Virus record (IMG/VR): IMGVR_UViG_3300024269_004845
DNA length: 64,000 nt
DNA from: a virus
Lineage: Duplodnaviria; Caudoviricetes
Direction: 5' to 3' (one strand)
Part shown: piece after piece, positions 60,185-61,707 of the stretch
Numbering within the stretch: position 1 is the stretch's first letter
Layout of the letters: every line of letters begins with the position of its first letter
Translations under genes and position numbers: made by a program
Notes under the pieces: model-generated
Told to the model about the DNA's origin: nothing
Databases searched by the model: none
Seen by the model: only the letters and a program-made list of their open reading frames with translations

Positions 60185-60213
60185 TTGACTTTTTGGAATT
60201 TATATGCTATAAT
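60185..60213 (+). promoter_or_regulatory. Strong sigmaA promoter of the tRNA operon
   Basis: TTGACT, 17-bp spacer, extended -10 TGcTATAAT. Confidence 0.85.
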
Positions 60214-60328
60214 GATATCGTAGAACGAAAAAAAGACAGTGTAAAACACTTTTTAATAATATTTTAAATCGTTATCGAATACATATATTTATATAAATCA
60301 AAAATTTACAAAAAGGAGGCGAACCATA

Positions 60329-60418
60329 ATGTTGAAGTTCGTAGTTATCAATACAACTGAAAATACTGAAGGTAATGGAGATGCACGTATGGTGTCGCCA
60401 TCTATTTGTCATGCATAA
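60329..60418 (+). CDS. Leader peptide MLKFVVINTTENTEGNGDARMVSPSICHA (29 aa)
   Basis: AAGGAGG RBS at 60313-60319; ORF overlaps the 5' strand of the antiterminator. Confidence 0.8.
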   Translation: MLKFVVINTTENTEGNGDARMVSPSICHA

Positions 60419-60490
60419 ATTCAAATTATAAAATTTGATTATTATGAGGACATTTGGCGACACGCTGAATGTCCTCTTTTTATTTTGTTT
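60392..60490 (+). terminator. Attenuator: antiterminator (60392-60463) versus intrinsic terminator (60446-60476 plus U-tract)
   Basis: 14-bp stem GAGGACATTTGGCG-ACA-CGCTGAATGTCCTC then TTTTTATTTTGTTT; GTGTCGCCA (60392-60400) is the exact complement of TGGCGACAC (60455-60463). Confidence 0.85.
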
Positions 60491-60492
60491 AT

Positions 60493-60569
60493 GGCCTGTT
60501 CGACGAATTGGTTAAGTCGCCACCCTCTCAAGGTGGAGGTTATGGGTTCGAGTCCCATACAGGTCACCA
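60493..60569 (+). tRNA. tRNA-Glu(CTC)
   Basis: Cloverleaf; anticodon arm CCACC-CT-CTC-AA-GGTGG; GTTCGAG T-loop; encoded CCA. Confidence 0.95.
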
Positions 60570-60572
60570 TAT

Positions 60573-60648
60573 GCTGCTATAACTCAGTCGGTAGAGTACT
60601 TGCATGGTAAGCAAGAAGTCCCCAGTTCAAGCCTGGGTAGTAGCTCCA
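60573..60648 (+). tRNA. tRNA-Thr(GGT)
   Basis: CTTGC-AT-GGT-AA-GCAAG; T73; CCA. Confidence 0.93.
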
Positions 60649-60658
60649 TTTTATATTT

Positions 60659-60734
60659 GGCTCTGAAGAGAAACAGCAGACTCGCCACTCTGTCACAGTG
60701 GAGATAGCGGGGGCAGCACCCGTCTGAGCCGCCA
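60659..60734 (+). tRNA. tRNA-Asp(GTC), atypical D- and T-loops
   Basis: CCACT-CT-GTC-AC-AGTGG; G73 and CCA; T-loop GGCAGCA; no GG in the D-loop. Confidence 0.8.
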
Positions 60735-60760
60735 AGAAATTTTATATTTCTTCTTTACAT

Positions 60761-60838
60761 GGCCCATTAGTCGAATTGGTTAAGACGTCGCCCTTTCAAG
60801 GCGAAGGTTGCTGGGTTCAAATCCCGCATGGGTCACCA
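60761..60838 (+). tRNA. tRNA-Glu(TTC) with a bulged T in the T-stem
   Basis: TCGCC-CT-TTC-AA-GGCGA; CCA. Confidence 0.9.
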
Positions 60839-60844
60839 CTATAT

Positions 60845-61015
60845 AGTGAAGATAGACGAAGCATCGAGTCGGGGGTCAGCATACGGCCTTGACAACGTAA
60901 GAAATAAGTCTGAGGATAACTCGAGTAAAGTAAGAAACTATTTCTTGAAGTGAAAGATAAATCATTTTATTTAGTAGCGAGTTATAAGAAGGTTTAAGTC
61001 CTTCCTTCACAACCA
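60845..61015 (+). ncRNA. tRNA-like RNA with a 97-nt insert in the variable region
   Basis: Acceptor GTGAAG/CTTCAC plus ACCA; D-stem GAC/GTC; 7-nt loop AGCATAC; T-arm GAAGG-TTTAAGT-CCTTC. Confidence 0.65.
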
Positions 61016-61021
61016 CTATAT

Positions 61022-61097
61022 TCCTCTATAGCTCAGTTGGTAGAGCGCGTGGCTGTTAACCACGATGTCGCAGGTTCGAGCCCTGCTGGAGGAGCCA
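61022..61097 (+). tRNA. tRNA-Asn(GTT)
   Basis: CGTGG-CT-GTT-AA-CCACG; G73; CCA. Confidence 0.95.
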
Positions 61098-61233
61098 TCG
61101 AAGACATGTTGTATGTCAAACTAAACAACTTCAAGTTATCGCAGAGTTCTTATAGAAGAATGGGCCCAAATAATAAATTAGTAGTGGCAAGCGAAAGTTT
61201 ATGGGTTGAAGCGGATTAAAGAAGTTTTTAAAT

Positions 61234-61376
61234 GGTCCCATCGACAAGTGGTCTAAGTCGTCGCCCTTTCGTTGGATTAGTTTAAGTAAAACATTACTGC
61301 GGTAAAGATTTGAGTGCAAGTCTCATGTTCAGCACCAAAGGCGGAGTCACGGGTTCGAATCCCGTTGGGACTACCA
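61234..61376 (+). tRNA. tRNA-Glu(TTC) interrupted after the anticodon by a 67-nt tRNA-like insert (halves 61234-61270 and 61338-61376)
   Basis: Joining the halves gives a canonical 76-nt cloverleaf with TCGCC-CT-TTC-AA-GGCGG and CCA. Confidence 0.85.
61271..61337 (+). ncRNA. Nested mini-tRNA-like element ending in CCA
   Basis: Acceptor GTTGGAT/GTTCAGC; D-arm GTTT-AAGTA-AAAC; short arm TTAC-TGCG-GTAA; T-arm TGAG-TGCAAGT-CTCA; then ACCA. Confidence 0.75.
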
Positions 61377-61386
61377 TTTTAAACAT

Positions 61387-61463
61387 GCTCCCATCCTCTA
61401 ACGGGCCTAGGAGTCATCCCTTTCAAGGATGCAATGCGAGTTCGAGCCTCGCTGGGAGTACCA
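61387..61463 (+). tRNA. tRNA-Glu(TTC)
   Basis: CATCC-CT-TTC-AA-GGATG; CCA. Confidence 0.92.
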
Positions 61464-61469
61464 CTATAT

Positions 61470-61545
61470 TCCTCGTTAGTCTAGTTGGTAAAACGGCGGA
61501 CTGTTAATCCGTATAGCGCTGGTTCGAGCCCAGCACGAGGAGCCA
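61470..61545 (+). tRNA. tRNA-Asn(GTT)
   Basis: GCGGA-CT-GTT-AA-TCCGT; CCA. Confidence 0.93.
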
Positions 61546-61633
61546 CGCTGCTGTGGAATGCGGAACCCTTAATCACCACAGGTGGGTACGGTTGGTAAAC
61601 CGCTAAGGTAATCTTAGAAAAGCTTCCTTATAC

Positions 61634-61707
61634 GCTGGCATAGTTTAAAGGTAAAACAAGGACCTTGTAAGTCTTAGTTCCCAGTTCGATTCTGGGTGCC
61701 AGCTCCA
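61634..61707 (+). tRNA. tRNA-Thr(TGT)
   Basis: AGGAC-CT-TGT-AA-GTCTT; CCA. Confidence 0.93.

What the first reader, a model, noticed from the sequence alone, without database searches (positions are those of the whole stretch)
60185..61707. Leader-peptide attenuator that appears to let a tRNA operon sense shortage of its own tRNA species (Glu/Thr/Asn/Asp)
Seen: a consensus promoter (60185-60213), an AAGGAGG RBS and a 29-codon ORF (60329-60418). Codons 8-18 are AAT ACA ACT GAA AAT ACT GAA GGT AAT GGA GAT (N T T E N T E G N G D). Nine of these 11 codons are Asn/Thr/Glu/Asp, and these residues occur nowhere else in the peptide. A 14-bp terminator with U-tract (60446-60490) ends 2 nt before the first tRNA. 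Codons 22-24 (GTGTCGCCA, 60392-60400) are exactly complementary to TGGCGACAC inside the terminator. The alternative hairpin extends through TGTC/GACA, CATAA/TTATG and TCAAATT/AATTTGA, and cannot coexist with the terminator. All 11 conventional tRNA genes downstream in the window are Glu (4), Thr (3), Asn (2) or Asp (2), and their anticodons read the leader's control codons. Established: this is the geometry of trp/his/thr-type ribosome-mediated attenuation. Inference: a ribosome stalled on the N/T/E/D codons leaves 60392-60418 free, the antiterminator forms and the tRNAs are made; a ribosome that reads through masks it and transcription stops. The array would then be an on-demand tRNA supply triggered by tRNA depletion (anticodon-nuclease defence or toxins, starvation, or general ribosome stalling). 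I know leader-peptide attenuators for biosynthetic, synthetase and resistance genes, but not a codon-matched one controlling a tRNA array. Internal promoters at 61714 and 63573 mean the last Thr and Asp genes may be partly independent.
Basis: partly seen in the sequence, partly recalled or inferred. Interest (0 to 1): 0.95.

Follow-up and report, generated by a model that had tools for sequence, protein, structure and literature searches.

The report
Leader-peptide attenuator gating a tRNA array
A tiny translated "test" gene, written almost only in the amino acids whose tRNAs lie behind it and wired to a switchable transcription stop, sits in front of a tRNA gene array on a giant plasmid-like element of animal-gut Firmicutes; it probably turns the array on only when ribosomes read those codons slowly, a control I could not find published for tRNA genes.

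Summary
A near-consensus promoter, an AAGGAGG ribosome site, a 29-codon ORF and a 14-bp terminator with a U-tract lie directly before the first tRNA. An identical copy that runs past the window end shows the array continues with tRNA-Gly(TCC), Met, Met and Gly(GCC).

I recovered four lineages of the element. All keep the ribosome site, a 28-32-codon ORF and a run of 11-16 codons drawn from Asn/Thr/Glu/Asp/Gly/Met, with one Gln exception. All keep three mutually exclusive helices: ribosome site with region 2, region 2 with region 3 (antiterminator), and the terminator. Each helix shows compensatory changes.

The ORF's 3' part is conserved as RNA, because one lineage reads it in another frame yet stops at the same TAA. 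The longest such run in 17,745 residues of window proteins is 6.

Ribosome-mediated attenuation of a tRNA operon, matched to its own tRNAs, is the best reading (about 0.7). Nothing is shown experimentally. All four arrays share one amino-acid set, so leader/array co-variation could not be tested. This scan has noted the same architecture on other DNA, mostly phages. I found no paper describing it.

The parts
60185..60213 (+). Sigma-70-type promoter, TTGACT-17-TATAAT with extended TG
   Evidence: Scores 11/12 and is the best site in the region. An equivalent promoter sits at the same place in lineages B, C and D.
60214..60307 (+). 5' untranslated leader, poorly conserved
   Evidence: 72% identity between the window and L089, against 99% for the adjacent ribosome-site/ORF segment. 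Its length and sequence differ between lineages.
60308..60332 (+). Region 1: ribosome-binding site AAGGAGG, spacer and start codon. This is the 5' strand of the anti-antiterminator helix.
   Evidence: The MFE of the nascent leader pairs it with 60383-60409. Duplex energy is -19.3 kcal/mol against -9.0 +/- 2.3 for shuffles. The same pairing appears in all four lineages, with the spacer co-varying with the sequence just 5' of region 2.
60329..60418 (+). 29-codon leader ORF (MLKFVVINTTENTEGNGDARMVSPSICHA)
   Evidence: It was called as a gene in public assemblies. An ORF of 28-32 codons with a ribosome site 7-10 nt upstream is kept in four lineages.
60350..60382 (+). Control run, codons 8-18: AAT ACA ACT GAA AAT ACT GAA GGT AAT GGA GAT
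   Evidence: All 11 codons are read by array tRNAs: Asn-GTT, Thr-TGT, Thr-GGT, Glu-TTC, Gly-GCC, Gly-TCC and Asp-GTC. Other lineages carry runs of 12, 13 and 16 codons (15 of the 16 in the set) with a different order. The longest such run in window proteins is 6.
60383..60409 (+). Region 2 (core GTGTCGCCA, 60392-60400). It pairs either with region 1 or with region 3.
   Evidence: TCGCCATCTATT is invariant at the nucleotide level in all lineages but is read in a different frame in lineage C. Duplexes with region 1 and region 3 both exceed shuffles.
60392..60463 (+). Antiterminator hairpin (regions 2:3), which includes the stop codon and a small apical hairpin at 60421-60438
   Evidence: -25.1 kcal/mol. 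It is the MFE for the transcript up to 60463 with or without ribosome masks. An equivalent hairpin of -21.6 to -24.3 kcal/mol forms in lineages B, C and D. The core pair G60394-C60461 becomes U-A in lineage C.
60446..60486 (+). Intrinsic terminator (regions 3:4, 14 bp, loop ACA) with U-tract TTTTTATTTT
   Evidence: -20.0 kcal/mol. RNAalifold on five sequences finds 13 pairs, 5 of them with compensatory double changes.
60493..64000 (+). Regulated tRNA array. It runs past the window end to about 65363 in window numbering.
   Evidence: In the window: Glu-CTC, Thr-GGT, Glu-TTC, Asn-GTT, an interrupted Glu, Glu-TTC, Asn-GTT, Thr-TGT, the VIT1 gene, Thr-CGT and Asp-GTC. In L081 it continues with Asn-GTT, Gly-TCC, Met, Met and Gly-GCC, then a strong bidirectional terminator.

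Best explanation
This is a ribosome-mediated (leader-peptide) transcription attenuator that gates a whole tRNA operon. Its sensing codons are those decoded by the operon's own tRNAs.

Layout (shown). Transcription starts at a strong promoter. The nascent leader carries four pairing regions:
- region 1: the ribosome-binding site, spacer and start codon;
- region 2: leader codons about 19-27;
- regions 3 and 4: the two arms of the intrinsic terminator.

Proposed logic (inferred).
- No ribosome on the leader: regions 1 and 2 pair, regions 3 and 4 form the terminator, and transcription stops 16 nt before the first tRNA.
- Fast translation: the lead ribosome covers region 2 and then the stop codon, which lies 15 nt behind the core of region 2. 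The terminator forms again.
- Slow decoding: the lead ribosome waits in the run of 11 Asn/Thr/Glu/Gly/Asp codons, which starts 44 nt and ends 14 nt upstream of region 2's core. Following ribosomes occupy region 1. Region 2 is then free to pair with region 3 as soon as region 3 is made. This antiterminator blocks the terminator, and RNA polymerase reads into the array (Glu, Thr, Asn, Asp, Gly, Met).

The circuit would be a negative feedback loop on the supply of these tRNA species for a large plasmid-like element.

Shown: the sequence elements, their conservation and their covariation. Inferred: translation of the leader, stalling, the kinetic choice between helices, and the physiological trigger.
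For: 1. Anatomy at the stated coordinates.

2. Codon match. All 11 codons of the run are read by array tRNAs.

3. Statistics. The longest N/T/E/D/G run in 17,745 aa of window proteins is 6. The iid P for a run of 11 or more is 4e-5.

4. The cassette is kept in four lineages. Peptides:
- A: MLKFVVINTTENTEGNGDARMVSPSICHA
- B: MRKYFVTTNENTEDNGDTRMVSPSICHA
- C: MQKFIVITDTEMNNEQGNGDTTTRFRHLLIMR
- D: MRKFFVNGTTENTENGDTMFVSPSICHA
Between the hydrophobic N-terminus and region 2, about 50 of 52 residues come from the array's set. The set makes up 34% of the proteome. There is no Lys or Ser, although K is 8.7% and S 6.8% of the proteome.

5. Conservation island. Between the window and L089, the ribosome-site/ORF segment is 99% identical and the stop-to-terminator segment 95%. 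The 5'UTR is 72%, the SLH gene 80% and the adjacent tRNAs 76-87%.

6. RNA-level constraint combined with a translated frame. TCGCCATCTATT is invariant but read in another frame in lineage C. Two compensating frameshifts (-4 nt before it, +1 nt after it) bring that ORF to the same TAA. Indels inside the run are multiples of 3.

7. All three helices recur in every lineage.
- Terminator: 5 of 13 pairs have compensatory changes.
- Antiterminator: -21.6 to -24.3 kcal/mol against -19.2 to -20.0 for the terminator. It is the MFE before the 3' arm is made. Core pair G-C becomes U-A in lineage C. Duplexes beat 974-998 of 1000 shuffles.
- Ribosome site: region 2 helix: -16.6 to -23.3 kcal/mol against about -9 for shuffles. 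The spacer co-varies: ACCAT/ATGGT in A and B, GGACGTG/CACGTTT in C, ACAAA/TTTGT in D.

8. Constant geometry. The first run codon lies 44 nt before the antiterminator core (52 nt in C). The core end lies 15-16 nt before the stop codon.

9. Operon structure. In lineage B a single strong promoter, the attenuator, 11 tRNAs and a strong final terminator bracket one unit with no other strong promoter.
Against: - There is no expression, Ribo-seq or Term-seq evidence.
- All arrays recovered carry the same amino-acid set. The strongest test, leaders changing with array content, could therefore not be made. The four lineages are related, not independent.
- ENTE..NGD is fairly conserved as a peptide in A, B and D. 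A peptide-level or RNA-level role for this stretch is not excluded.
- Region 1 is the ribosome site, not the control codons. A lone stalled ribosome would leave region 1 free to re-pair with region 2, so the model needs trailing ribosomes on the site.
- At equilibrium the terminator wins under every ribosome mask tried (P of at least 0.98), so the switch must be kinetic. That is assumed, not shown.
- With the stop codon in the A site, a footprint of about 15 nt upstream just fails to cover the 9-nt core of region 2.
- Lineage C has one Gln codon in the run. Lineage B uses ACT but no tRNA-Thr(GGT) was detected in its array.
- In the window's lineage, promoter-like sites inside the array (61714, 63573) may make distal genes partly independent.
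Confidence: 0.7

Rival explanations
1. It is a ribosome-dependent attenuator, but a general translation-stress sensor. Any slowing of the lead ribosome (ribosome-targeting antibiotics, ribosome damage, nascent-peptide arrest by the conserved M-x-K-F-x-V start) opens the array. This is how ermK-, vmlR- or msrD-type leaders of Firmicutes work. The codon composition of the run would be secondary.
For: - Same helices and ORF as in the main reading.
- The N-terminal M-x-K-[FY]-[FVI]-V is conserved in all lineages.
- The only experimentally studied inducible tRNA array, the Anabaena trn operon, responds to general translational stress (PMC8421152, PMC10272220).
- Leader-peptide attenuators known in Firmicutes are mostly of the antibiotic-sensing type (my own knowledge; vmlR: PMC9226507).
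Against: - It does not explain why about 50 of 52 run codons in four lineages are drawn from exactly the array's amino acids.
- It does not explain why every substitution and insertion in the run stays within that set.
- It does not explain why the Gly codons matched tRNA-Gly genes not yet seen when predicted.
Confidence: 0.13
2. It is a structured RNA switch that does not need translation. The three alternative helices would be set by a trans-acting factor: a protein antiterminator, a small RNA, or an uncharged tRNA as in T-boxes. AGGAGG would only be the strand that pairs with CCATCT, and the ORF would be incidental.
For: - Conservation of the 3' half of the ORF is at the RNA level, not the peptide level.
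- AGGAGGCGA is itself part of a conserved helix.
- The 5' arm of the terminator (TGGCGAC) is complementary to the 3' end GUCGCCA of the array's tRNA-Asp (read from the alignment plus the gene's CCA end).
- The run is also conserved at synonymous sites within lineage A.
Against: - There is no T-box or other Rfam family match at E of 1 or less. The only hit is a sub-threshold ctRNA_pT181 hit over the hairpins.
- A start codon 7-10 nt after AGGAGG and an open frame of 28-32 codons persist in AT-rich sequence through several indels.
- All indels in the run are 3n, and a frameshift in lineage C is compensated so that the same TAA is used.
- The run lies in the unpaired loop between regions 1 and 2, where an RNA-only switch imposes no obvious constraint on codon identity. 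It also avoids Lys codons, the commonest A-rich codons.
Confidence: 0.1
3. It is a self-contained small-peptide gene (promoter, ORF, its own terminator) that merely lies upstream of the array. The tRNAs would be made by constitutive leak-through, and the codon match would be coincidence or compositional bias of a hydrophilic peptide.
For: - The cassette looks like a complete small gene, and gene callers annotated the 29-aa product.
- NGD and ENTE are conserved as peptide motifs in three lineages.
Against: - No promoter lies between the terminator and the first tRNA, which starts 16 nt after the stem.
- In lineage B the leader promoter is the only strong promoter of the operon.
- The C-terminal third of the peptide is not conserved as protein.
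- The antiterminator and anti-antiterminator helices, with covariation, have no role in a plain peptide gene.
- A run of this composition is absent from 17,745 aa of the element's proteins.
Confidence: 0.05

Closest known systems
Multivalent leader-peptide attenuators of enterobacterial amino-acid operons (thrL: Thr/Ile; ilvL of ilvGMEDA: Ile/Leu/Val; also trpL, hisL, leuL, pheL)
   Same: - A short translated ORF with a run of regulatory codons for several amino acids.
- An intrinsic terminator just upstream of the regulated genes.
- A mutually exclusive antiterminator that overlaps the ORF's 3' end, with the stop codon inside the switch.
- An upstream helix that sequesters region 2 when there is no translation.
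(Family description from my own knowledge; pheL review PMC3082878. Features found here.)
   Different: - The regulated genes are tRNAs, not biosynthetic enzymes, so the sensor reports on the product class it controls (tRNA supply) rather than on amino-acid supply.
- Five or six amino acids are sensed.
- Region 1 is the ribosome-binding site and start codon rather than the control codons. The control codons lie in the loop between regions 1 and 2.
- The host is a low-GC Firmicutes-type element, where such attenuators are uncommon for biosynthetic operons.
Antibiotic-sensing leader-peptide attenuators of Firmicutes (ermK/ermC-type, vmlR, msrD, yxjB)
   Same: A small leader ORF with a strong ribosome site. 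A stalled ribosome redirects folding from terminator to antiterminator. These occur in low-GC Gram-positive bacteria and their mobile elements (PMC9226507, PMC6851288, 10.1101/2021.11.29.470318).
   Different: Those leaders stall through drug plus nascent-peptide interactions at specific positions. They carry no run of codons matched to the regulated product. Here the conserved feature is the codon composition of an 11-16 codon run.
T-box riboswitches
   Same: Terminator/antiterminator leaders of Firmicutes that sense the state of a specific tRNA. The antiterminator contains UGGN, which pairs with the tRNA's NCCA end. Here TGGCGAC in region 3 is complementary to the 3' end of tRNA-Asp.
   Different: There is no Stem I, specifier loop or T-box sequence, and no Rfam hit at E of 1 or less. 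T-boxes are not translated and regulate synthetase, biosynthesis and transporter genes. Here an ORF is conserved.
The trn operon (L-array of 23-26 tRNA genes) on the Anabaena PCC 7120 megaplasmid
   Same: A horizontally mobile tRNA array on a large plasmid. It is silent by default and switched on when translation is impaired (PMC8421152).
   Different: Control there is by the RHH repressor TrcR, which binds direct repeats over the -10 box. The words leader, attenuation and terminator do not occur in PMC8421152 (PMC10272220). It senses general translational stress and has no codon-matched leader.
Earlier unchecked notes of this scan: codon-matched leader attenuators before phage tRNA arrays (e1-3412744, e1-4040834, e1-4045671, e1-3450868 and others)
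   Same: The same architecture: promoter, mini-ORF spelled in the array's amino acids, terminator/antiterminator, then tRNA genes.
   Different: - Those are phages of Bacteroidota, Caulobacter and unknown hosts, often with several cassettes per genome.
- This one is a single cassette on a plasmid-like element of gut Firmicutes. The element has T4SS coupling proteins and no phage structural hits.
- There is no sequence similarity to them.
- Those are AI notes, not publications, and I did not re-test them.

Membership tests
Leader-peptide (ribosome-mediated) transcription attenuators | Short ORF with its own ribosome-binding site in the leader transcript | tested here: met
   AAGGAGG lies 9 nt before the ATG of a 29-codon ORF. 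The site plus a start codon at 7-10 nt and a 28-32-codon ORF are kept in four lineages.
Leader-peptide (ribosome-mediated) transcription attenuators | Cluster of regulatory codons cognate to what the operon supplies | tested here: met
   11 consecutive codons are all decoded by array tRNAs. Runs of 12-16 codons from the same set occur in the other lineages. P is about 4e-5 under iid, and there is no run longer than 6 in 17,745 aa.
Leader-peptide (ribosome-mediated) transcription attenuators | Intrinsic terminator between the leader ORF and the regulated genes | tested here: met
   14-bp stem at -20 kcal/mol plus a U-tract, ending 6 nt before the first tRNA. 5 of 13 pairs co-vary.
Leader-peptide (ribosome-mediated) transcription attenuators | Mutually exclusive antiterminator whose 5' strand lies in or near the end of the ORF | tested here: met
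   Hairpin 60392-60463 at -25.1 kcal/mol shares 60446-60463 with the terminator. It is present in all lineages at -21.6 to -24.3. One core pair is compensatory. Duplexes exceed shuffles.
Leader-peptide (ribosome-mediated) transcription attenuators | Upstream helix (1:2) that ties up region 2 without translation | tested here: met
   The ribosome-site/start region pairs with region 2 at -16.6 to -23.3 kcal/mol in all four lineages, with a co-varying spacer. Unlike trp or his, region 1 does not contain the control codons.
Leader-peptide (ribosome-mediated) transcription attenuators | Leader is translated and read-through rises when ribosomes stall at the control codons | not testable with these tools
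   No RNA or ribosome-profiling data were available for this element. Equilibrium folding with ribosome masks does not discriminate.
T-box riboswitch | Stem I with specifier loop, and the conserved T-box antiterminator sequence | tested here: not met
   cmscan of 58000-64000 at E of 1 or less gave no T-box hit. The 5'UTR upstream of the ribosome site is short (45-95 nt), AT-rich and not conserved.
Repressor-controlled L-array (Anabaena trn/TrcR type) | Direct repeats over the -10 box and TSS bound by an RHH repressor; no leader ORF or terminator | tested here: inconclusive
   The leader ORF and terminator here are features that family lacks. I did not search the promoter for repressor-binding repeats, so an additional layer of promoter control is not excluded.

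The most novel reading that the evidence does not exclude
The cassette is a tRNA-supply homeostat. The leader ORF acts as a decoding-speed test for the Asn, Thr, Glu, Asp and Gly (and perhaps Met) tRNAs the element carries. The array is transcribed only when those codons are read slowly. The cause could be that the host's own tRNAs are scarce, damaged by anticodon nucleases, or drained by the element's giant proteins. Together with the phage cases noted elsewhere in this scan, it would define a widespread, unpublished class of codon-matched attenuators that let mobile elements autoregulate their tRNA genes.
Probability: 0.55. Interest if true: 0.85.

Novelty: new variant of a known kind. Interest (0 to 1): 0.8.

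Why it matters
- tRNA genes are usually thought to be controlled at the promoter (growth rate, stringent response, or a repressor as in Anabaena). A leader-peptide attenuator would let a tRNA operon measure directly, on a ribosome, whether its own products are limiting. That is a closed feedback loop on decoding capacity.
- It offers a concrete, testable answer to why mobile elements carry tRNA arrays and how they avoid the cost of expressing them constantly.
- It gives a compact natural sensor of codon-specific translation speed that could be used as a reporter.
- It extends the classical attenuation paradigm to a new class of regulated genes and to plasmid-like elements of gut Firmicutes.
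- The comparative data here already define the mutations needed for a decisive reporter experiment. These data are four lineages, three co-varying helices and a frame-shifted but still open ORF.

Tried and rejected
1. The VIT1 gene inside the array as a synteny anchor. Its 80 best relatives are ordinary chromosomal Clostridia genes with no leader and no array. The gene was probably captured from a host.

2. The upstream 414-aa lipoprotein as an anchor. It has one distant relative, in an unrelated chromosomal context, and nothing in viral contigs. It is an insertion specific to the window's sublineage.

3. Pattern scans for the leader.
- Metagenome contigs gave 42 hits. All are chance matches, mostly the start of one gene with a P-loop motif (probably a shikimate kinase) from a human-gut bacterium.
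- Three viral-contig scans gave nothing.
- Plasmid records gave nothing by DNA or by SLH protein.
- Phage records gave only generic tRNA similarity.

4. Expression. No RNA holder is listed among the public runs. The four runs laid were DNA contigs. They showed variant copies, including an extra A in the terminator loop, but the substitutions in the leader were not printed.

6. SLH relatives at 39-41% identity (P0047, P0049) lie in other contexts without arrays. The 69% relative's contig ends at the SLH gene.

7. Equilibrium folding with ribosome masks. The terminator always wins once it is complete, so this cannot support or reject the model.

8. My recollection that the Anabaena trn operon is controlled by a leader ORF was wrong. 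It is controlled by the repressor TrcR.

9. Considered and set aside: a promoter-like site at 60406-60434 inside the ORF. Transcripts from it would still meet the terminator, and its -10 is not conserved.

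
Full report
**The observation**

The window is low-GC (about 32%). From 60185 it reads as follows:
- a near-consensus promoter, TTGACT-17-TATAAT with TG, which scores 11/12 and is the best site in 6 kb;
- a 95-nt AT-rich untranslated stretch;
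- AAGGAGG, then an ATG 9 nt later;
- a 29-codon ORF, MLKFVVINTTENTEGNGDARMVSPSICHA;
- a small hairpin;
- a 14-bp terminator with TTTTTATTTT, 6 nt before the first tRNA at 60493.

GTGTCGCCA (60392-60400) is the exact complement of TGGCGACAC (60455-60463).

ARAGORN and Rfam find nine standard tRNAs in the window: Glu x3, Thr x3, Asn x2, Asp x1.

**Beyond the window end**

No whole genome is held for this window. An identical copy from a JGI metagenome, L081, extends 2 kb further. There the array continues with Asn-GTT, Gly-TCC, Met, Met and Gly-GCC, then ends at a strong bidirectional terminator.

Both codons, GGA and GGT, have their cognate isoacceptor in the array. Hence all 11 codons 8-18 are decoded by array tRNAs.

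In 40 large ORFs of the window (17,745 aa) the longest run of N/T/E/D/G is 6. These residues are 31.6% of the proteome. The iid probability of a run of 11 or more in 28 codons is 4e-5.

**What the replicon is**

The window encodes:
- three VirD4/TraG-type coupling proteins;
- a HerA-like ATPase, SbcCD-like and RecD2-like proteins, and an RNase R/II homologue;
- topoisomerase I/III and gyrase/topo IV-like A and B subunits;
- a Tad-type ATPase and ParA-like proteins.

There are no phage structural hits. Contigs that carry window proteins reach 297 kb. Public runs that hold it are animal faecal or gut metagenomes. I read it as a giant plasmid-like or conjugative element of gut Firmicutes. Its host is unknown.

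**Finding relatives**

Several anchors failed (see Tried and rejected). The productive anchors were a fast-evolving 770-aa protein and above all the SLH-domain protein. In relatives the SLH protein lies directly upstream of the leader.

They gave four lineages:

| Lineage | Loci | SLH identity to the window |
|---|---|---|
| A | window/L081, L083, L089/L090 | 85-100% |
| B | L137, L139-L146 | 78% |
| C | L138 | 74% |
| D | L147-L152 | 78%, a separate 90% cluster |

All complete arrays encode only Glu, Thr, Asn, Asp, Gly and Met tRNAs. Order and copy number differ. Lineage C's contig ends after Thr, Glu, Asp and the start of a second Asp.

**The leader ORF in the four lineages**

- A: MLKFVVINTTENTEGNGDARMVSPSICHA. 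Natural variants are I7V, A19T and M21V.
- B: MRKYFVTTNENTEDNGDTRMVSPSICHA.
- C: (GTG start) MQKFIVITDTEMNNEQGNGDTTTRFRHLLIMR.
- D: M[RK]KFFVNGTTENTENGDTMFVSPSICHA.

Each has AAGGAGG 7-10 nt before the start codon. Between the hydrophobic N-terminus and region 2, the residues are almost entirely from the array's set. The only exceptions are Ala19 in the window's own copy and L089/L090 (Thr in L083 and in lineages B and D) and one Gln in C.

The order differs, and every substitution or insertion stays in the set (N/T/G, G/D, A to T, +G, +M, +D). Lys and Ser never occur, although they are 8.7% and 6.8% of the proteome.

Indels inside the run are multiples of three.

In lineage C the invariant nucleotides TCGCCATCTATT are read in a different frame (FRHLL instead of SPSI). 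A -4 nt difference before this block and a +1 nt difference after it bring the ORF to the same TAA.

So the 3' third of the ORF is constrained as RNA, yet the frame must still run to that stop codon. This is what a translated leader overlapping an RNA switch predicts.

**A conservation island**

Identity between the window and L089 by segment:

| Segment | Identity |
|---|---|
| SLH gene | 80% |
| Promoter | 75% |
| 5'UTR | 72% |
| Ribosome site plus ORF | 99% |
| Stop codon to terminator | 95% |
| Conventional tRNAs | 76-87% (one at 99%) |

The leader is therefore better conserved than the sequence on either side. A recently exchanged block would not show this pattern.

**Three alternative helices, each recurring with covariation**

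1. Terminator. It is -19.2 to -20.0 kcal/mol in lineages A, B and C, and D has an equivalent 14-bp stem, with a U-tract in every lineage. RNAalifold finds 13 pairs, 5 of them with compensatory double changes. The outer half of the stem is entirely different in lineage D yet still pairs.

2. Antiterminator.
- Region 2 pairs with TGGCGAC/TGGCGAA at the top of the terminator's 5' arm.
- With lineage-specific inner helices the hairpin is -21.6 to -24.3 kcal/mol.
- It is the MFE of the transcript as long as the terminator's 3' arm is not yet made.
- The core pair G60394-C60461 is U-A in lineage C.
- Duplexes beat 974-998 of 1000 shuffles.

- Before region 3 exists, the MFE pairs AGG-A-GGCGA plus the spacer and start codon with region 2 and the bases just 5' of it.
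- Energies are -16.6 to -23.3 kcal/mol against about -9 +/- 2.5 for shuffles.
- The spacer co-varies: ACCAT/ATGGT in A and B, GGACGTG/CACGTTT in C, ACAAA/TTTGT in D.

The geometry is constant. The first run codon lies 44 nt upstream of the antiterminator core (52 nt in C). The core's end lies 15-16 nt before the stop codon.

**Operon structure**

In lineage B the SLH terminator is followed by one strong promoter, the attenuator, 11 tRNAs with an ~800-nt non-coding stretch and a 72-aa ORF, then a 17-bp terminator. No other promoter of 10/12 or better lies inside. The distal Gly and Met genes therefore belong to the unit the leader controls.

In the window's lineage a VIT1 gene with its own promoter-like site (61714) has been inserted, and a further site lies at 63573.

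**How it most likely works**

The shown parts are the elements, their mutual exclusivity and their conservation. The inferred part is classical attenuation logic:
- Without translation, regions 1:2 and 3:4 form and transcription ends.
- With fast translation the ribosome covers region 2 and 3:4 forms.
- With the lead ribosome waiting in the run and followers on the ribosome site, region 2 pairs with region 3 and the polymerase reads on.

Equilibrium folding with ribosome masks always favours the completed terminator (P of at least 0.98). Up to position 60463 it favours the antiterminator (P 0.89-1.0). So the choice must be kinetic, as in known attenuators.

Two weak points remain. Region 1 is not covered by the stalled ribosome itself. 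A ribosome at the stop codon only just reaches the core of region 2.

**Comparison with what is known**

- The closest mechanism is multivalent leader-peptide attenuation (thrL, ilvL). All sequence-level defining features are met. The functional one cannot be tested here.
- It is not a T-box (no Rfam hit).
- The one studied inducible tRNA array, on the Anabaena megaplasmid, is controlled by the repressor TrcR, not by a leader.
- Six full-text searches found no account of a leader-peptide attenuator controlling tRNA genes.
- This scan's own earlier notes report the same architecture repeatedly before phage tRNA arrays, some with leaders said to change with array content. None shares sequence with this one. 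They are unchecked AI notes and I did not re-test them.

**Verdict**

It is a new variant of a known mechanism, applied to a new class of genes. Here it sits on a plasmid-like element rather than a phage.

Confidence is about 0.83 that it is a ribosome-dependent attenuator of the array. This splits into 0.70 for codon-matched sensing and 0.13 for general stress sensing.

Noticed in passing
window 60493-61707 compared with L089 (minus strand) and L083: Within lineage A the conventional tRNA genes are the fastest-evolving parts of the array (76-87% identity, with compensatory stem changes). The interspersed odd RNAs (60649-60760, 60839-61021, the interrupted tRNA-Glu at 61233-61376) are 94-96% identical. 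This is the opposite of the usual expectation.
   Followed up: partly
window 58919-60163: The 414-aa lipoprotein gene between the SLH gene and the leader promoter is present only in the window's sublineage. In L083, L089 and lineages B and D the leader promoter follows the SLH terminator directly. Its only relative (36%) is chromosomal.
   Followed up: partly
window 61772-62650: A VIT1/ferritin-like gene is embedded in the tRNA array in lineage A only. Its closest relatives (72-79%) are ordinary chromosomal genes of many Clostridia MAGs without tRNA neighbours, so it looks like a captured host gene.
   Followed up: partly
L147 about 9400-9640 (also L148, L149, L151, L152): Lineage D has two tandem strong promoters before the leader. 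They are separated by about 190 nt that include a long-range inverted repeat, GTCCGA...TCGGAC. This is an extra element absent from the other lineages.
   Followed up: no
L089 5295-8748; L147 2352-5847; L148 3295-6480: In some lineages the gyrA/topo IV-A-like gene is split into a ~100-aa and a ~590-aa piece by a LAGLIDADG ORF. This suggests an intron or intein-type homing element. The window's copy (53293-55371) is uninterrupted.
   Followed up: no
L139 11151-11960; L081 10827-11621 (window 63745 onward): A ~800-nt ORF-free stretch lies between tRNA-Asp and the next tRNA in lineages A and B. It is part of the same transcription unit. Another first-stage note calls it GOLLD-like, but Rfam at gathering thresholds reports only tRNAs there.
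   Followed up: partly
L081 12143-12367; L139 12143-12361; L147 13730-13960: A 72-76-aa ORF with its own ribosome site sits between tRNA-Met and the last tRNA-Gly in lineages A, B and D, inside the tRNA operon. It has no Pfam family on record.
   Followed up: no
window 55408-57729 (minus strand): The 770-aa protein next to the SLH gene evolves very fast. It is 34% identical between elements whose SLH proteins are 85% identical. It has no Pfam or PHROG family.
   Followed up: partly
window 60461: Variant copies in two unrelated gut metagenome runs carry an extra A in the terminator loop, and small deletions at 60227-60231 in the 5'UTR. The stems are untouched.
   Followed up: no
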